From the sequence record NC_055781.1: a stretch of DNA of 64,000 bases. One strand, written 5' to 3'. This stretch comes from Escherichia phage p000v. The notes beneath the pieces were generated by a model, which worked only from the letters and a program-made list of their open reading frames with translations, did no database searches and had not been told where the DNA came from. The position numbers were made by a program, and so were the translations under genes. Numbering within the stretch: position 1 is the stretch's first letter; each line of letters starts with the position of its first letter. Below, in pieces: positions 1,045 through 13,617 of the stretch.

Positions 1045-3014
1045 TGTGAAATAGGCTCCAAATCTATAGTTAAGTACTGAGGACGTAAGTCATTTTCAAA
1101 TACGATTAAAGAACCATCCTTTGTAAAAATAATATCATCTGCAGGGTCGGAATAAAGTTCAATTGTTTGAACTTCAAAACGGTCTGAAGTGAGGTCAATT
1201 TTAGCAATGTTCCAATAAATCGAATCGGCAGGATAATTCACTTCACCAATTGAATAGTATTTGTTTCGTCCGTCAGTAACAGCAAGTTTATTAAAATCAT
1301 TACCTGTATAAGGTTGTATATTTTCGTTTTCAACAACATCGCCGTCTGCAAATGGGCCAATAATAACTTGACCTATGCCACGGTCATTACGGTCAGAAGA
1401 TACTATGCGAACACCGTATTTAATAGTTTCGTTTGCATTTTCTGGATTAGGTCTGTGCGAATCAAACGAGAATATATTAGATTCCATCGATCTATCTTTA
1501 ATCTGATTATTGTATTTAATACCGGCCTCAGGCGTTTTATAAAAGTTCTGTACTTCGCGAACCATTTGAATAGTAGCCGAAGAACCAATAATAGAAATAT
1601 CTGCATCATCGACATAAGTTAGCATTTTAGATTTTGCAAACGATGAGTTAAAAATTTCTACATCTTCAATATAATATCGGTCAATTTTATTAATAATCTG
1701 TCCTTCAAGGTATTGCTCTGATTCTTGAAGTTTATTCAACGCGTATGTAACTTTGATATTCATTTTGATAAACAAATAATCAGGCGAAATAACAACAGGT
1801 GTAATAGTCCCTAAGTTATAATCATTTAAATAGTTTTTGATGTCGTCGCGTTGAACAGAAGTCAAATACAATCCAGATTTAGGCTTAGCAGCAATATATG
1901 CGTACCCGGGTTTAGACGAATCTGTGAATGTTTGAACTGCTTGAATAATAGAACCAAACCGCTCAGAGACGAATGTGTCATAGTCGGAAGCGGTTACACA
2001 ACGTTGTTGAGTTTCACGTTTAATTGTGCCTAATTCTCGAATACGTTCAATATCTTCAGGGTCACCGCCACCATCAGCCCCGACAAAGTCTGGGTTATTG
2101 CTAGGGTTCTCGTTAATATCGATTACAGTGATATTAGCTAATGTATCAGCATAAGAAAATCCTACAGCACCGTTAGCATCTGCGCCATTAGTAGAAATAT
2201 ACTCAATTACGATTTTAGAACCCTGAACAGGCTTAAGGCCACCAATATAGTTGGATGTTAACGCGCCTTCTGATGTGTTAATAGAGATTTCGCCTTCACC
2301 AAAATAAAATTCGGTGTTCCCATCAACAGTTTCACGCATATAATAGATTGTTGACGTAGAACCAGCGTGAACCATCGACTTACGAGTCCAGTTAATCCAT
2401 TCTGCTCCGTCAACATACAACTTAACCAAATTACGGTCAATATTCTTATCACGAATAATGATAGGTTTTAATTTATCAAATGTTAATTCAGTGCGAACAA
2501 TACGACCCTGAGCTAATCGAAGACGTGGGAAATATTGATTATTTTTGTCTTTAACTACAATGACATCTTCAGTAGAAACAAAGTTATACGGGTTAACAGA
2601 AGTATCTTTAGCATATGCTAAGAAACGAGTGCCACGTGGAATGGTGATATAGTTTCTATTTAATGCATCTGTACATGTGAGCATAATTTCTGTTTGTGCC
2701 GCTGATTTAGATGAAGGCAGATATCCGTTATCTTGAGCCGCTTGTACAACAGAGCTACGCAAGTTTGCAGTGCGCATAAAACTTTCATACACTGCGCTAT
2801 TACTAAACTGTTGGATGTAAAGAGTGTTATATGCTAAAAGGTCGCACAATACGTTTAAGCGTGAACCTTCAAAATCATAATCAAGAAATTCATTCTGTCC
2901 ATGGAGCCATTCGATAATGTTTTGTTTGATTTCGGCAAATGTGCCCCCGATAAAAATCTCGGGAATAGCATTCGCTGTTCGGGTTAATTGATAATTTACA
3001 GGAGTGTTTGCCAT
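1041..3014 (-). CDS. 6: baseplate wedge protein gp6
   Basis: 657 aa; start set at MANTPVNYQLTRTANAIPE (ATG 3014, AGGA SD upstream) rather than longer track ORF; similarity to T4 gp6 along whole length. Confidence 0.92.
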   Translation of the reverse strand: MANTPVNYQLTRTANAIPEIFIGGTFAEIKQNIIEWLHGQNEFLDYDFEGSRLNVLCDLLAYNTLYIQQFSNSAVYESFMRTANLRSSVVQAAQDNGYLPSSKSAAQTEIMLTCTDALNRNYITIPRGTRFLAYAKDTSVNPYNFVSTEDVIVVKDKNNQYFPRLRLAQGRIVRTELTFDKLKPIIIRDKNIDRNLVKLYVDGAEWINWTRKSMVHAGSTSTIYYMRETVDGNTEFYFGEGEISINTSEGALTSNYIGGLKPVQGSKIVIEYISTNGADANGAVGFSYADTLANITVIDINENPSNNPDFVGADGGGDPEDIERIRELGTIKRETQQRCVTASDYDTFVSERFGSIIQAVQTFTDSSKPGYAYIAAKPKSGLYLTSVQRDDIKNYLNDYNLGTITPVVISPDYLFIKMNIKVTYALNKLQESEQYLEGQIINKIDRYYIEDVEIFNSSFAKSKMLTYVDDADISIIGSSATIQMVREVQNFYKTPEAGIKYNNQIKDRSMESNIFSFDSHRPNPENANETIKYGVRIVSSDRNDRGIGQVIIGPFADGDVVENENIQPYTGNDFNKLAVTDGRNKYYSIGEVNYPADSIYWNIAKIDLTSDRFEVQTIELYSDPADDIIFTKDGSLIVFENDLRPQYLTIDLEPISQ

Positions 3015-3022
3015 TTTAATTC

Positions 3023-3316
3023 CTATTTGATAAAGACTTTTGACGAGGCCTGAGAAACAGTATCCCCGCATGAAATTGGGTCAGCCATTTGAACGGCCTT
3101 TTTACCGGTGACGTATACTTTAGATGTACGAGGTTCAGTAACACCTCCATGAGTCTCGTATGGTTTTTTAATTTCTGTATGAGGTGTTATTTGGTCTCCT
3201 GCTACAAGAACAGGAATACCGCCGGTGAACACTTTAGATTGGGAAGCATTTATTACAGTAGGAGGCCATGCTTCATGACCTGTTGTAACGCACTTGTCGT
3301 AACTTAAGCCAGACAT
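3023..3316 (-). CDS. 5.4: PAAR-repeat spike-tip protein gp5.4
   Basis: 97 aa from [19 protein letters not shown]; matches T4 gp5.4 as recalled; track ORF N-terminal extension rejected. Confidence 0.85.
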
Positions 3317-3318
3317 TT

Positions 3319-3834
3319 TTATGGCCTCGCATAAACATAGTTTCGTAATTGTTGAGCCCATTTGCTCCAATTTCCTACTATAGTTTTTGTATAAACCTTA
3401 GTAAGAGTTTTTTGTACTGGAGCCGGTGGAGGTTCTGTACCAGAGTCACTTCTAGAGCCGCCTGATGAACTTTCTTCTTGGTAGTTATAAATCATTTCAA
3501 CCGTATAACTAAACACTTTACGAAGATTCTGAGGAGCTCTCCACAAATATAACTGTGTGGATTCATCTTTTGGTAAATCATCCCATGAAGATGCAGTTTT
3601 AAAATCATCATTTAATCGATATTTCAATGCATCCGAAGAAAAGCTAAACACACTTTCATATGTTCCATATAAATGATTACCATCAACAGTAATGCCTTGT
3701 GTCGGTTCATAATCTATTATATTTATTGACACTAAAGTTTCGGACGTTTCTAACTGTGGAGTAAAAAGGACGTCAATAGACGCCCCTTCCATGTCTTCTC
3801 CTAAGTCGGTATTTAAAGGAAGTATTTGTGCCAT
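3319..3834 (-). CDS. conserved protein between genes 5 and 5.4 (gp5.1-like)
   Basis: 171-aa ORF tightly packed between gp5 and gp5.4 on same strand; no motif recognised. Confidence 0.6.
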
Positions 3835-6658: not shown

Positions 6659-7309
6659 ATGTATACTGTATATAAAATAACTAACATCGTAAATAATAAA
6701 ATTTATATAGGTGTTCATAAAACTAATAACCCGGATGATTCTTATAAAGGAACAGGTAAAATTATCTTAAAAGCCCATGCTAAATACGGATTAGATAATT
6801 TTGTAAAAGAAGTATTATATGTGTATGATACCGGTGACGAATTACTAAATGAAGAAATGGCTTTCCAAAAGGAAGCAGAATTAGTTGATCAATCTTTTGT
6901 GGATAGAGAAGATACATATAATATAGACCTAGGAGGAAAGGGAGGACGAGGCCGTTCTATTGATGTGCGAAAAAGAATAGGCGATTCATCCAGAGGTAGA
7001 AAATTAGGTCCTATTTCCGAAGAATCTAAAAAGAAAATGAGTTTAGCTAAGAAGGGTAAGAAATTATCCGAAGAGCATAAAGCTAAAATAGGTAAAGCAG
7101 GCCGAGGCAGGATAATGCCTAAAGAGATTAGAGACAAAATAAAAAATACTCTTACGGGACGAAATAGAACTCCTGAAGAAAAGGAAAACATGAGATTAGG
7201 ATACTTAAATACTCCTAATAAGATATGCCAATACTGCGGTATAGAATGTAAACCTGCGCCTTATAAACGTTGGCATGGTGATAATTGTAAAATGAGGAAA
7301 GTTGAATGA
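6659..7309 (+). CDS. GIY-YIG homing endonuclease (Seg-like)
   Basis: N-terminal [23 protein letters not shown] motif; basic C-terminal DNA-binding region; inserted between genes 4 and 2 with ATGA overlap onto gene 2. Confidence 0.85.
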
Positions 7310-11586: not shown

Positions 11587-12102
11587 ATGAATATTCGTTT
11601 AGGCAGTACAATTACTAAGGGCTACGTAATTGATGTCACTACCTATGAAAATGATGGTGACAACTATAAAACCAAAACATTGTTTGAAGTGGAAGAACAT
11701 GAGCTCCAACAGTTTAAATATCTCTTGAAGAAATTTAAGAGCCGTCATTCTAGCACCAAAGCCGAACGCTATTGCGGTAATACACCATTCAGTGATTGCT
11801 CGCTTATTATCTACGAATATCTGGTTGAAGGACTGTTCTCAGACCAACTCCAACCGGAATTTATTAAAAAGGTCTTTGGTATCGAAGTAGACCTTGGTGA
11901 TAAATCTGAAGAAGACGAAGCCCGCGTATTCGACCTGTTCTTTGTGAAAGGCGATGAGATATCTCAAGGACTTATTGATATTCTTGGCTATGCTTCTGAA
12001 TACTATGATTACGATTTCTTGCGTGTAGTTGAACGTGTCGAATTTGCTTATATTGAAAAAGAAATTGTTTTGCCAACAGTTAAAATGGTTGATTTGCTTT
12101 AA
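11587..12102 (+). CDS. hypothetical acidic protein
   Basis: 171-aa ORF with SD; no motif recognised. Confidence 0.55.
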   Translation: MNIRLGSTITKGYVIDVTTYENDGDNYKTKTLFEVEEHELQQFKYLLKKFKSRHSSTKAERYCGNTPFSDCSLIIYEYLVEGLFSDQLQPEFIKKVFGIEVDLGDKSEEDEARVFDLFFVKGDEISQGLIDILGYASEYYDYDFLRVVERVEFAYIEKEIVLPTVKMVDLL

Positions 12103-12181
12103 GAATTATGTGTTATTATTAATTCATACCCTCTATTACCAAAGGTGCTCTAAAGTGCCTTTCATAATAGAAAGTTATTAA

Positions 12182-12253
12182 GGCCCTGTAGCTCAATGGG
12201 AGAGCTGTCAGCTCATAACTGATAGGTAGCTGGATCGAAACCAGCCAGGGCCA
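12182..12253 (+). tRNA. tRNA with CAU anticodon (elongator Met or Ile2-type); CCA not encoded
   Basis: Hand-folded cloverleaf: acceptor GGCCCTG/CAGGGCC, D-stem GCTC/GAGC, anticodon stem GTCAG/CTGAT with loop CTCATAA, T-stem GCTGG/CCAGC; 1-72 pair is G-C so not an initiator. Confidence 0.8.
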
Positions 12254-12294
12254 TATTTTGGGAACATAAATACTCTTAGAAATAGGAGATATTT

Positions 12295-12963
12295 ATGTTC
12301 CATTACACTTATAAAATAACAAATAAAATTAATAATAAAATCTATATAGGCGCTCATTCTACCGAAAATTTAGATGATGGATATATGGGTTCTGGTAAAT
12401 TATTAAAAAGAGCCCAAGACAAGTATGGTATAGAAAATTTTAATAAAGAAATTTTAGAATTCTTTGACACTAAAGAGCAGATGTTTGAAGCCGAGAAAAA
12501 TATCGTAAACGAAGAATTTTTGAATCGTTCTGACGTATATAATTTAAAACTTGGTGGCGAAGGTGGTTGGGACCATTTAAATACTTACGAATTTAATTAT
12601 AAAAAGAAAGAAGCCTCTATTAAAGGAGCCAAAGCTTTTAAAGAGAGATTTGATTCTGATGAAGTGCTTCAAGAAAAATATCGTAAAATGGGTTCAGAGA
12701 AATTAAAGCATCTGTGGACTTTACCTGAATACAGAGAAAAATTCTCTAGCACTAAGTCGTTTTTAAATAAAAATCATACTTCCGAAACTATTGCTAAAAT
12801 GAAAGATACCCACGCCAGGAACAAACACCAACAAGGCGAGAAAAATTCCCAGTTTGGTACTATGTGGATTCATTCATTAGAAGAAAAGAAATCTAAGAAA
12901 ATTAAGAAAACCGATCCTATTCCGGAAGGTTGGATTAAAGGCTATAAACTAAAATTTAAGTGA
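12295..12963 (+). CDS. GIY-YIG homing endonuclease (SegB-like, tRNA region)
   Basis: YKITNKINNKIYIGAHS...GSGKL GIY-YIG motif; adjacent to tRNA as T4 segB. Confidence 0.85.
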   Translation: MFHYTYKITNKINNKIYIGAHSTENLDDGYMGSGKLLKRAQDKYGIENFNKEILEFFDTKEQMFEAEKNIVNEEFLNRSDVYNLKLGGEGGWDHLNTYEFNYKKKEASIKGAKAFKERFDSDEVLQEKYRKMGSEKLKHLWTLPEYREKFSSTKSFLNKNHTSETIAKMKDTHARNKHQQGEKNSQFGTMWIHSLEEKKSKKIKKTDPIPEGWIKGYKLKFK

Positions 12964-12970
12964 GGAAAAT

Positions 12971-13316
12971 ATGAAAGGTAATATTTATCTGGTAGTTCAT
13001 GATTTAACGTTTTATTTTAACGAACAGGATACAGTTATTTCGCGACCGGTTGATTAATTCATTATATCAACACGCTGATTACGTTTATTTCCAAAATGAA
13101 TTTGGCCATTGGAAGTTCCTTAAAAATCGTTCCGGGTTAACTAGTTTTGAATACTTTGACCGTAAAGACCTTTTAAACGAAATTCCATTGCAACATCGGT
13201 TCCAGAAACGCGAATCATTATATTATTGCCGTCATATACCAAACGCAGAATGTGCCAATGAAGCGATTAATCTATGGCGTAGACGTAGAGAACAAATTGA
13301 TGATATGCCAAAATAA
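12971..13316 (+). pseudogene. possible frameshifted gene (28-codon ORF with strong SD, then 88-codon frame lacking ATG)
   Basis: ATG 12971 with GAGGA SD opens a 28-codon frame ending 13057; an overlapping frame is open from 13008 to 13316 with no ATG; T-rich run at 13011-13020. Confidence 0.35.
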
Positions 13317-13617
13317 GAAGCCGGGTCGCTACCGGCAAGACGTCGGACTGATGTTCCCTGGGTAAGGACTGGTCTTAATAAATCTTTACGATTTGTTAAT
13401 ATCCCCTTACATCACAGCAGAAACGGCGCGCAGAATTATCGATTCGAGGAAATATCTTTGCCGTAAGCCGAGTAGCGTTTTTGACGGAACGTTCGGATAT
13501 GGTCGAGATATGGCCTTTTAAAAATATTGAGTAGCGTCAACTGCTTAATAACCGGGTTCGAATCCCGGCGTTTCGTACAAACACTTACCTAGTAGGTGGA
13601 AACCCCGACAAGGTATA
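13317..13617 (+). ncRNA. candidate stable small RNA(s) with tRNA-like 3' element (analogous to T4 RNA C/D region)
   Basis: 300-bp ORF-free stretch beside tRNA/seg locus; T-arm-like CCGGGTTCGAATCCCGG (13552-13568) plus acceptor-like pairing CGGAACG/CGTTTCG; ends at strong terminator. Confidence 0.3.

What the first reader, a model, noticed from the sequence alone, without database searches (positions are those of the whole stretch)
12182..12253. Single CAU-anticodon tRNA instead of the T4 eight-tRNA cluster
Only one tRNA folds cleanly in the window. Its CAU anticodon and G1-C72 pair indicate elongator Met or, if lysidinylated, Ile(AUA). The T-loop ATCGAAA is atypical. A phage-supplied AUA-reading tRNA would suit an AT-rich genome.
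Basis: seen in the sequence. Interest (0 to 1): 0.35.

Follow-up and report, generated by a model that had tools for sequence, protein, structure and literature searches.

The report
Lone phage AUA-reading tRNA beside segB
The single tRNA in this T4-like phage window is real and is almost certainly the isoleucine tRNA that reads the rare AUA codon (software mislabels it Met); it stands alone because a mobile homing-endonuclease gene, segB, occupies the place where relatives carry an arginine tRNA, which makes it an ordinary but neatly explained case.

Summary
The tRNA at 12182-12253 (+) is confirmed: ARAGORN finds it, Rfam scores it 62.4 bits, and it is the only tRNA in the 64 kb. The window is a Mosigvirus-type T-even phage, and the gene sits in the slot syntenic with the T4 tRNA cluster.

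The tRNA is not tRNA-Met. It has C4-G69 and C5-G68 (TilS determinants), G27·U43 (blocks the tRNA-Met acetylase TmcA), plus C29-G41, U12-A23 and A73. It is closer to E. coli ileX (73%) and a prophage tRNA-Ile (78%) than to metT (61%) or initiator (53%). ARAGORN also mislabels the authentic T4 tRNA-Ile as "Met". AUA use is 10.5/1000 codons (16.1 in late genes), against 4.9 in E. coli.

Relatives normally have CAU plus Arg(UCU), sometimes with Asn. Here a segB homing-endonuclease cassette (76% aa identity to T4 SegB) starts right after A73, where relatives have CCAA, and ends 4 nt past where tRNA-Arg would end. The cassette is 100% identical in two other phages whose flanks are only 84-95% identical.

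T4's stable RNAs rnaD and rnaC also survive downstream. The odd T-loop AUCGAAA is real, conserved across three phage genera, and mismatches SegB's recognition core, but whether that matters is untested. This is a known kind of element and the interest is low.

The parts
12092..12119 (+). Candidate T4-type middle promoter: MotA-box-like ATTTGCTTTA, 12 nt, then TATTAT, about 60 nt upstream of the tRNA
   Evidence: Sequence match. The same element (ATATGCTTTA-12 nt-TATTAT) lies upstream of tRNA-Gln, the first gene of the T4 cluster. It is invariant in four Mosigvirus relatives. Function is inferred and was not tested. The generic sigma-70 scan was uninformative.
12182..12253 (+). tRNA with CAU anticodon, assigned here as tRNA-Ile2 (AUA reader after lysidine formation at C34 by host TilS); no CCA encoded
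   Evidence: real tRNA; identity elements and pairwise identities; synteny with T4 tRNA-Ile, which ARAGORN also calls Met; nearest E. coli genes annotated tRNA-Ile.
12254..12294 (+). 41-nt spacer from the tRNA discriminator base to the segB start codon; the left junction of the segB cassette lies at 12253|12254
   Evidence: It matches the T4 tRNA-Ile-to-segB spacer at 40 of 41 positions. segB-less relatives have CCAA at this point.
12295..12963 (+). segB, a free-standing GIY-YIG homing endonuclease gene (222 aa)
   Evidence: 76% aa identity over the full length to T4 SegB, E = 2e-128. Pfam GIY-YIG 29 bits against a cut-off of 22.6. phrog_314 homing endonuclease, 1e-49. dN/dS 0.17 against T4. 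0 of 710 nt differences from VIPECOMC06 and LF82-4. The right junction with backbone sequence lies at 12957|12958 (AAATTT|AAGTGAGG), 4 nt beyond where the CCAA of tRNA-Arg ends in relatives.
12971..13316 (+). Homologue of RB69ORF150c (114 aa in relatives), frameshifted in this window by one extra G at 13042
   Evidence: Removing one base restores a protein identical to the ESh15 protein. The ORF is intact in five relatives (one search shows one gap in every comparison).
13313..13432 (+). Homologue of T4 rnaD (stable 'species 2' RNA of the tRNA operon)
   Evidence: 84.9% identity to T4 rnaD. No Rfam family.
13439..13577 (+). Homologue of T4 rnaC (stable 'species 1' RNA) with a tRNA-like T-arm; it contains the only perfect SegB core motif GGTTCGAATCC in the window (13555-13565)
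   Evidence: 137 of 139 nt identical to T4 rnaC. Motif search gives 1 match against 0.17 expected.

Best explanation
The gene encodes a phage tRNA-Ile2. It is probably transcribed from a conserved middle-type promoter. RNase P would cut its 5' end. Because no CCA is encoded, the host would trim its 3' end and add CCA, as for T4 tRNA-Ile, which has the same 3' trailer. Host TilS would then convert C34 to lysidine, so that IleRS charges the tRNA and it reads AUA rather than AUG. This tops up the scarce host tRNA-Ile2 for a phage that uses AUA two to three times more often than E. coli. It is the only tRNA because the Mosigvirus tRNA locus is already reduced to CAU + Arg(UCU), sometimes with Asn. 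In this phage a segB homing-endonuclease cassette has replaced the stretch from the CCA end of the CAU tRNA to just past tRNA-Arg. Shown here: a real, conserved, covarying tRNA; Ile2-type determinants; synteny; the cassette boundaries; horizontal spread of the cassette. Inferred: lysidine formation, Ile charging, expression, and the DNA-break mechanism of the replacement.
For: It is a real tRNA. The TilS positive determinants C4-G69 and C5-G68 are present. The tRNA-Met negative determinants U4-A69 and A5-U68 are absent. G27·U43, the negative determinant for the tRNA-Met acetylase TmcA, is present, and C27-G43 is absent (sequence; rules from PMC2500205 and PMC11947777). C4-G69, C5-G68, C29-G41, U12-A23 and A73 are invariant in all nine Ile2-type sequences, including E. 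coli ileX and T4 tRNA-Ile. Pairwise identity is 72.6% to ileX, 78.1% to a prophage tRNA-Ile and 71.6% to T4 tRNA-Ile, against 60.8% to metT and 52.7% to initiator metZ. The only E. coli chromosomal hits are PGAP-annotated tRNA-Ile. A 97%-identical copy is annotated tRNA-Ile in phage ASO2A. The position is the same as T4 tRNA-Ile, directly upstream of segB with a nearly identical spacer. ARAGORN also calls T4 tRNA-Ile 'Met'. Nolan et al. 2006 reported that every tRNA-bearing T4-like genome keeps a CAU tRNA with IleRS signatures (PMC1524935). ESCO13 carries this tRNA plus a second, different CAU tRNA. AUA is 10.5/1000 overall, 16.1 in late structural genes and 27.4 in the two homing-endonuclease genes, against 4.9 in E. 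coli (PMC12514573). For the cassette: the junctions; 0 of 710 differences from two phages whose flanks are 84-95% identical, while the window's own flanks are closest to segB-less phages; only 2 of 50,697 phage records share it; VIPECOMC06 has one tRNA genome-wide.
Against: No isotype-specific classifier (the tRNAscan-SE 2 Ile2 model) was available. No modification or charging data exist for this allele. The tRNA has non-canonical tertiary positions (A54·A58, A60, A15·A48) whose effect on TilS, IleRS and EF-Tu is unknown. It is only about 72% identical to the experimentally characterised T4 tRNA-Ile, and RB69 carries the T4-type allele, so the published RB69 assignment does not cover this allele directly. 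The AUA excess is moderate. Nolan et al. noted that codon bias explains phage tRNA content poorly outside T4. The direction and mechanism of the tRNA-Arg replacement are inferred from parsimony and junction positions only.
Confidence: 0.85

Rival explanations
1. It is an elongator tRNA-Met that supplements AUG decoding, as ARAGORN and most GenBank records label it.
For: CAU anticodon and G1-C72. Unmodified CAU is the main MetRS identity element (established knowledge; PMC12514573). Most database records annotate it tRNA-Met.
Against: It carries the TilS positive pairs C4-G69 and C5-G68 instead of the tRNA-Met pairs U4-A69 and A5-U68. It carries G27·U43 instead of the C27-G43 that TmcA needs (PMC2500205). 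Identity to metT is 61% against 73-78% to Ile2-type tRNAs. The 'Met' label is the same software default that mislabels the authentic T4 tRNA-Ile. AUG is not a rare codon needing supplementation: ATG is 27/1000 here, which is typical.
Confidence: 0.05
2. It is an initiator-type tRNA; the AUCGAAA T-loop with A54 and A60 is the hallmark of eukaryotic initiator tRNAs.
For: The T-loop A54/A60 matches the eukaryotic initiator signature (PMC4425011).
Against: G1-C72 is a normal pair, so there is neither the bacterial 1x72 mismatch nor the eukaryotic A1-U72. The anticodon stem is G·U, U-A, C-G, A-U, G-C rather than three consecutive G-C pairs. Identity to E. coli initiator is 52.7%. The same T-arm occurs on Phe(GAA) and Asn(GUU) phage tRNAs, so it is not tied to initiation.
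Confidence: 0.01
3. Its main role is not codon supply. It could be kept as a replacement for host tRNA that is degraded or cleaved during infection (counter-defence), or merely as the landing pad and flank of the selfish segB element.
For: Phage tRNAs next to segB can serve as anti-defence cargo: tRNA-Tyr counters Septu in T6 (PMC13096335). The tRNA and segB travel together in one 0.9-kb identical tract. Codon bias explains phage tRNA sets poorly outside T4 (PMC1524935).
Against: No nuclease that targets tRNA-Ile2 is known to me (memory only). The tRNA is conserved at 95% or more in about 160 records, nearly all without segB, including an unrelated genus. Compensatory changes show selection on the folded RNA. 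A replacement tRNA would still act as an AUA decoder, so this rival differs in selective reason rather than in mechanism.
Confidence: 0.08

Closest known systems
Phage T4 tRNA-Ile (gene tRNAI, T4t002), the AUA-reading CAU tRNA of the T4 cluster
   Same: Same genomic slot, downstream of trna.4-trna.3-trna.2 and immediately upstream of segB. Same 41-nt trailer and spacer, and no encoded CCA. CAU anticodon. Identical first 18 nt. C4-G69, C5-G68, C29-G41 and A73 are shared.
   Different: Only 71.6% identical. The anticodon and T stems are wholly different but compensated. T4 has a canonical TTCAAAT loop, G2·U71 and a U6·U67 mismatch. RB69 and some metagenomic Mosigvirus-like contigs carry the T4-type allele, so the window type is a second allele at the same locus.
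E. coli tRNA-Ile2 (ileX/ileY) and lambdoid-prophage tRNA-Ile(CAU)
   Same: All tested TilS, TmcA and IleRS discriminating positions are shared. The T-stem GCTGG/CCAGC is the same as in ileX. The T-stem plus the 3' acceptor strand (CCAGCCAGGGCCA) is identical to the prophage copy in E. coli M19. Identity is 73% to ileX and 78% to the prophage copy.
   Different: The T-loop is ATCGAAA rather than TTCAAGT or TTCAAAT. The D-loop is shorter. Position 15-48 is A·A instead of G-C. Pair 30-40 is A-U instead of G-C. CCA is not encoded here.
T4 SegB homing endonuclease system (Brok-Volchanskaya et al. 2008, PMC2330249; Chihara et al. 2026, PMC13096335)
   Same: Full-length orthologue (76% aa) with a GIY-YIG domain. 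It is embedded in the tRNA locus with the same left junction. It shows presence/absence polymorphism among close relatives. The cassette plus flank has been transferred horizontally. Recipient tRNA genes are lost on acquisition, as in T4 x T2L crosses.
   Different: In T4, tRNA-Arg survives 5 nt downstream of segB, whereas here it is gone. This segB lineage is as diverged from T4 segB (dS about 1.0) as the backbone genes are. The neighbouring tRNA T-arm (GGATCGAAACC) departs from the published core GGTTCRANTCC at two positions. Cleavage specificity of this orthologue is untested.
T4-like phages that keep a CAU tRNA as their only or most conserved tRNA (RB43: 1 tRNA; Nolan et al. 2006, PMC1524935)
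   Same: The CAU (putative lysidine) tRNA-Ile is the last tRNA retained when the cluster is reduced.
   Different: Here the single-tRNA state is recent and is caused by a mobile element. It is not a stable genus feature.

Membership tests
tRNA (Rfam RF00005) | Cloverleaf sequence/structure profile score above the gathering threshold | tested here: met
   62.4 bits against 29, full-length match. ARAGORN concurs. 95.8% of cells pair across homologues and 8 pairs covary.
Bacterial-type tRNA-Ile2 (lysidine, AUA) | CAU anticodon in the gene | tested here: met
   Anticodon loop CTCATAA.
Bacterial-type tRNA-Ile2 (lysidine, AUA) | E. coli TilS positive determinants C4-G69 and C5-G68, and absence of the tRNA-Met pairs U4-A69 and A5-U68 | tested here: met
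   C4-G69 and C5-G68 are present and invariant in all nine Ile2-type sequences. metT has U4-A69 and A5-U68. The rule is from PMC2500205 and PMC11947777.
Bacterial-type tRNA-Ile2 (lysidine, AUA) | Rejection by the tRNA-Met acetylase TmcA: G27·U43 present, C27-G43 absent | tested here: met
   27-43 is G-T in the gene, i.e. G·U in the RNA. The rule is from PMC2500205. Pair 30-40 is A-U and position 44 is A, so neither matches the tRNA-Met state (C30-G40, G44).
Bacterial-type tRNA-Ile2 (lysidine, AUA) | IleRS identity set outside position 34: A35, U36, A37, A38, A73, C4-G69, U12-A23, C29-G41 (Nureki et al. 1994, recalled from memory; cited in PMC1524935) | tested here: met
   All are present.
Bacterial-type tRNA-Ile2 (lysidine, AUA) | Lysidine actually present at position 34, isoleucine charging, AUA-specific decoding | not testable with these tools
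   This needs RNA mass spectrometry, or TilS and IleRS assays.
Bacterial-type tRNA-Ile2 (lysidine, AUA) | Higher score with an Ile2 isotype-specific covariance model than with Met or fMet models (tRNAscan-SE 2) | not tested
Indirect support: PGAP labels the nearest E. coli homologues tRNA-Ile, and one phage record labels a 97%-identical copy tRNA-Ile.
Elongator tRNA-Met | U4-A69 and A5-U68 acceptor pairs, and C27-G43, C30-G40 and G44 (TmcA determinants) as in E. coli metT | tested here: not met
   None of the five features is present.
Initiator tRNA | 1x72 mismatch (bacterial) and three consecutive G-C pairs at 29-41, 30-40 and 31-39 | tested here: not met
   G1-C72 is paired. The anticodon stem has C-G, A-U, G-C at those positions.
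T4-type tRNA-Ile allele (T4, RB69) | Close sequence identity to T4 tRNAI | tested here: not met
   71.6% identity. It holds the same slot but is a distinct allele.
SegB (GIY-YIG free-standing homing endonuclease of T-even tRNA loci) | GIY-YIG catalytic domain and full-length homology to T4 SegB, including the YIG motif residues Y17 and G19 | tested here: met
   The sequence KIYIG places Y17 and G19 as in the catalytic mutants of PMC13096335.
SegB (GIY-YIG free-standing homing endonuclease of T-even tRNA loci) | Mobile behaviour: present or absent among close relatives, with cassette phylogeny incongruent with the flanks | tested here: met
   0 of 710 differences against 5-16% flank divergence. 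The window's flanks are nearest to segB-less phages.
SegB (GIY-YIG free-standing homing endonuclease of T-even tRNA loci) | Site-specific cleavage at tRNA-gene T-arm/CCAR sites | not testable with these tools
   Only the positional coincidence of both junctions with the two CCAA ends can be shown.

The most novel reading that the evidence does not exclude
The unusual T-arms and 3' ends of tRNA genes in these phages may be escape alleles shaped by SegB, which recognises GGTTCRANTCC...CCAR in tRNA genes. The window-type CAU tRNA changes T54 and T60 (GGATCGAAACC). The Mosigvirus tRNA-Arg changes C56 (GGTTAGAATCC), and its D-loop lacks the usual GG, which could compensate. Among the seven CAU-tRNA allele classes seen, none combines a perfect core with a CCAR end. 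Relative to the prophage tRNA-Ile, three of seven T-loop bases differ while 18 stem bases are identical. If true, a selfish DNA endonuclease would be driving universally conserved tRNA positions away from consensus. It would also be pruning phage tRNA sets, here by deleting tRNA-Arg each time the cassette homes.
Probability: 0.2. Interest if true: 0.55.

Novelty: new member of a known kind. Interest (0 to 1): 0.27.

Why it matters
There are three practical consequences. First, this tRNA is annotated tRNA-Met in nearly all of roughly 160 phage records, and it should read tRNA-Ile(CAU). This changes any statement about which codons the phage supplements. Second, the locus is a clean natural example of a homing endonuclease remodelling a phage's translational cargo. 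The same 0.9-kb tRNA-segB tract sits in three otherwise diverged backbones, and wherever it sits the AGA-reading tRNA-Arg is gone. Third, it offers a cheap test of whether SegB pressure explains why some phage tRNAs break near-universal T-loop rules. None of this changes what is known about how such tRNAs or SegB work.

Tried and rejected
1. I assumed that RB69, the type Mosigvirus that Nolan 2006 analysed, has the same tRNA. It does not: RB69 carries the T4-type allele. The published Ile assignment therefore supports the class and not this allele.

2. I considered C71 (window) versus T71 (ESh15) as a marker co-converted with segB. This was rejected, because 20 records, including segB-less PhAPEC2, have C71.

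3. I considered VR7 as a precedent for a single-tRNA T-even relative. This was rejected, because ARAGORN finds an unannotated tRNA-Arg next to its CAU tRNA.

4. I considered a recent import of segB from T4. This was rejected: nucleotide identity is 78-80%, and dS of about 1.0 equals that of the backbone genes.

5. I considered the odd T-loop unique to this tRNA or phage. This was rejected. It is invariant in Mosigvirus, Gaprivervirus and Phapecoctavirus copies, and the same T-arm occurs on Phe and Asn tRNAs elsewhere.

6. I considered the odd T-loop a consequence of segB residency. This was rejected, because segB-less relatives have it too.

7. The generic promoter/terminator scan was uninformative: 7 sites against 8.1 expected.

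8. An exact tRNA|segB junction search in IMG/VR gave no match.

9. I looked for a tRNA-Arg remnant inside the 3' end of segB. There is none. That stretch is homologous to the T4 segB 3' end, and the MAFFT alignment to tRNA-Arg is spurious.

Full report
**Observation.** ARAGORN reports one tRNA in the whole 64-kb window, at 12182-12253 on the + strand, with anticodon CAT. Rfam's tRNA model matches the same coordinates end to end at 62.4 bits (gathering score 29, E = 3.8e-11) and nothing else in the window reaches any Rfam threshold. The RNA folds to -31.2 kcal/mol, z = -3.05 against shuffles. No CCA is encoded.

**Context.** The window is a T-even phage of the Mosigvirus type (RB69/HX01/JS09 group). 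The best database matches over 3 kb are 93-96% identical, and no record matches the whole 3-kb test stretch at near-identity, so this phage does not appear to be in the collection. G+C is 34-40%.

The locus is syntenic with the T4 tRNA cluster:
- T4 reads trna.4, trna.3, trna.2, then Gln-Leu-Gly-Pro-Ser-Thr-Ile, segB, Arg, rnaD, rnaC, e.8.
- The window reads trna.4, trna.3, trna.2, an extra 171-aa ORF (RB69ORF151c type), the CAU tRNA, a 222-aa GIY-YIG gene, a 114-aa-type ORF, then a 375-nt 'intergenic' stretch.

The GIY-YIG protein is 76% identical over its full length to T4 SegB. It has a Pfam GIY-YIG domain and falls in the homing-endonuclease PHROG. The 41-nt spacer between tRNA and segB matches T4's at 40 of 41 positions. 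The 375-nt stretch is homologous to T4's stable RNAs: rnaD at 13313-13432 (84.9% identity) and rnaC at 13439-13577 (137 of 139 nt). More of the T4 tRNA operon therefore survives than one tRNA.

A MotA-box-like element plus -10 hexamer (ATTTGCTTTA, 12 nt, TATTAT; 12092-12119) lies about 60 nt upstream. It is conserved with the sequence upstream of T4 tRNA-Gln. That it acts as a promoter is inference.

**Identity of the tRNA.** Published work on E. coli gives the discriminating rules:
- TilS recognises C4-G69 and C5-G68 of tRNA-Ile2, while U4-A69 and A5-U68 of tRNA-Met block it.
- The tRNA-Met acetylase TmcA needs C27-G43, and G27·U43 of tRNA-Ile2 blocks it (PMC2500205; PMC11947777).

The window tRNA has C4-G69, C5-G68 and G27·U43. 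It also has the IleRS elements C29-G41, U12-A23, A37, A38 and A73 (the IleRS set is from Nureki et al. 1994, recalled from memory and cited in PMC1524935). E. coli metT has the opposite states.

The tRNA is not an initiator. Position 1-72 is paired, and the anticodon stem lacks the three G-C pairs.

Pairwise identity:

| Compared with | Identity |
|---|---|
| lambdoid-prophage tRNA-Ile | 78.1% |
| E. coli ileX | 72.6% |
| T4 tRNA-Ile | 71.6% |
| E. coli metT | 60.8% |
| E. coli initiator metZ | 52.7% |

The only E. coli genome hits are PGAP-annotated tRNA-Ile genes in prophages. ARAGORN gives the same 'Met (cat)' label to the authentic T4 tRNA-Ile, so the label carries no weight. The SegB paper even calls one T2L gene tRNA-Ile in its Methods and tRNA-Met in its Results.

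In an alignment of nine Ile2-type tRNAs, the cloverleaf is 95.8% paired and eight pairs show compensatory double changes. No shuffle out of 500 reaches the observed covariation. The identity pairs listed above never vary. Within the window-type family alone there are two clean compensatory events: A30-U40 to G30-C40 in ESCO13, and G7-C66 to U7-A66 in VR7.

Nolan et al. 2006 had already noted that every tRNA-bearing T4-like genome has a CAU tRNA. It is mis-called Met but bears IleRS signatures, and RB43 has it as its only tRNA (PMC1524935).

**Codon demand.** The figures are in codons per 1000.

| Gene set | AUA | AGA | Call |
|---|---|---|---|
| 97 ORFs of the window | 10.5 (13.7% of Ile) | 6.4 | 34 |
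| Seven late structural genes | 16.1 | 8.5 | 82 |
| 41 large early/middle ORFs | 7.1 | 5.6 | 82 |
| Two seg-type endonuclease genes | 27.4 | 22.8 | 82 |
| E. coli genome | 4.9 | not looked up | 56 (PMC12514573) |

**Why the tRNA is alone.**
- Most Mosigvirus relatives have the CAU tRNA followed 6 nt later by tRNA-Arg(UCU). Examples are ESh15, LF82-1 and RB69, and 62 records cover at least 80% of that junction.
- Some relatives add tRNA-Asn (PhAPEC2). Mizar adds tRNA-Asn plus an unrelated endonuclease.
- In the window, homology with these relatives stops right after the discriminator base. The window reads GGGCCA|TATTTTGGG where relatives read GGGTCACCAA or GGGCCACCAA.
- Homology resumes at AAGTGAGG, 4 nt after the CCAA that ends tRNA-Arg in relatives.
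- The cassette therefore replaces the CCA end, tRNA-Arg and a few flanking bases.
- The left junction is the same as in T4. A segB-less T4-like contig shows the corresponding empty site, GGGTCA-CCAA-CTAC-tRNA-Arg.

SegB is reported to recognise a 27-bp site made of the T-arm core GGTTCRANTCC, a degenerate stretch and CCAR, and to cut just after CCAR (PMC2330249). Both junctions thus coincide with the two predicted cleavage points. That is suggestive, but it is not proof of mechanism.

**Mobility of the cassette.**
- The 710-nt spacer plus segB is 100.0% identical in VIPECOMC06 and LF82-4, the only 2 of 50,697 phage records with it. Both also lack tRNA-Arg.
- Flanking segments are only 84-95% identical to those two phages. 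The window's flanks are closest to segB-less phages such as ESh15, whose right flank is 97.3% identical.
- The tract identical to VIPECOMC06 runs from 12089 to about 13024, apart from one private SNP at 12979, and so includes the tRNA.
- LF82-4 and LF82-1 came from the same isolation campaign. They are 99.2% identical to the left of the locus and about 93% identical to the right.
- Against T4 segB, dN/dS is 0.17 and dS is about 1.0, similar to trna.2 and trna.4. This is an old, selected segB lineage that has recently moved between Mosigvirus backbones. It is not a recent import from T4.
- The complete VIPECOMC06 genome has one tRNA. Acquisition of this cassette therefore leaves the phage without its AGA tRNA.
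- Loss of recipient tRNA markers during SegB-driven inheritance was shown experimentally for T4 x T2L (PMC2330249). The association of segB with tRNA genes is documented broadly (PMC13096335).

**The atypical T-loop.**
- A54 and A60 are real. Together with A15·A48 they make an unusual elbow. AUCGAAA is the signature loop of eukaryotic initiator tRNAs (PMC4425011), but nothing else about this tRNA is initiator-like.
- The loop is invariant in every copy of this tRNA family. Twenty records are identical to the window and 142 are 95-99% identical. They come from Mosigvirus, Gaprivervirus (VR7) and the unrelated 150-kb Phapecoctavirus group.
- Among 74 distinct tRNAs in the fetched loci, 63 have TTC at positions 54-56 and 11 do not. 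The same T-arm occurs on Phe and Asn tRNAs of unrelated viral contigs.
- It is therefore a recurrent phage-tRNA variant under selection. It is not damage.

One untested lead concerns SegB. The T-arm DNA GGATCGAAACC departs from SegB's core at T54 and T60. From the T4 tRNA genes I infer that T54 is one of the six invariant core positions. The Mosigvirus tRNA-Arg departs at C56 (GGTTAGAATCC). No CAU-tRNA allele class seen here combines a perfect core with a CCAR end. The only perfect core in the window is in rnaC. Three points count against a simple escape story. The variant is present where segB is absent. It also occurs in Phapecoctavirus. And SegB cuts T4's own tRNA genes in vitro (PMC2330249), and motif-disrupted substrates are still cleaved at a reduced level (PMC13096335).

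**A correction made during the work.** RB69 itself carries the T4-type CAU allele followed by TATAT, with no CCA. Two alleles about 72% identical therefore occupy the same slot within one genus. The window-type allele shares its T-stem and 3' acceptor strand exactly with a lambdoid-prophage tRNA-Ile. It is shared at 97% with Phapecoctavirus, which points to exchange of this tRNA gene across phage families.

**Verdict.** The tRNA is a known kind of element that is widely present, though mis-annotated, in databases. The added value lies in three things: the explanation of why it is alone (a mobile segB cassette sits in place of tRNA-Arg), the retained rnaD and rnaC, and a testable but unproven link between SegB's target motif and the odd T-arms. 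Interest is low to modest.

Noticed in passing
window 13439-13577 (rnaC homologue) and 13313-13432 (rnaD homologue): The rnaC homologue is 98.6% identical to T4 rnaC, while neighbouring genes are about 78-88% identical. This is extreme conservation for an RNA whose function is, as far as I recall, still unknown. It carries a tRNA-like T-arm and the only perfect SegB core motif in the window (13555-13565). Neither RNA has an Rfam family.
   Followed up: partly
window 12971-13316, extra G at 13042: The RB69ORF150c-type gene just downstream of segB is frameshifted by a single inserted base that is private to this window. It is intact in ESh15, Mizar, VIPECOMC06, LF82-4 and PhAPEC2. It may be a sequencing error or a recent pseudogene.
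   Followed up: partly
window 6659-7309 (+): A second seg-type homing endonuclease ORF (phrog_314, E = 2e-50) sits between gp4 and gp2 and is absent from that site in VIPECOMC06. It is the most AUA- and AGA-rich sizeable ORF (41.7 and 32.4 per 1000).
   Followed up: partly
L020 (ESCO13, Phapecoctavirus) 2501-2652; one search hit list: The window-type CAU tRNA (97% identical, same odd T-loop) heads the ten-tRNA cluster of about 150-kb Phapecoctavirus phages, again directly followed by tRNA-Arg(UCU). This implies exchange of the tRNA gene between unrelated phage families.
   Followed up: partly
L027 (RB69) 2284-2442: RB69 carries the T4-type CAU allele, without CCA and followed by TATAT, rather than the window-type allele. 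Two alleles about 72% identical therefore segregate at one locus within Mosigvirus.
   Followed up: partly
L001 (ESh15) 2761-2837; also RB69 and VR7: The Mosigvirus-type tRNA-Arg(UCU) has T-loop TTAGAAT (A56 instead of the near-universal C56) and a D-loop without the GG dinucleotide. This may be covariation of the 19-56 tertiary pair.
   Followed up: no
L003 (Mizar) 2902-3567: A different, unrelated homing-endonuclease-like ORF (NUMOD3/DUF559 by the record's note) lies between tRNA-Asn and tRNA-Arg. The tRNA locus is thus a repeated landing site for mobile endonucleases.
   Followed up: no
L022 (VR7) 2080-2156: The RefSeq record annotates one tRNA, but ARAGORN finds an additional tRNA-Arg(UCU) immediately downstream of the CAU tRNA.
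   Followed up: no
window 11587-12102: The 171-aa ORF (phrog_2290, RB69ORF151c type) between trna.2 and the tRNA is absent from T4 and from LF82-4. No Pfam domain was found.
   Followed up: no
L033, L050, L041, L038, L044 (IMG/VR contigs): The exact T-arm GCTGG-ATCGAAA-CCAGC occurs on Phe(GAA) and Asn(GUU) tRNAs of unrelated viral contigs. 38 of 46 matches to the 17-mer, some of them on giant-virus MAGs, lie outside any tRNA that ARAGORN calls in bacterial mode.
   Followed up: partly
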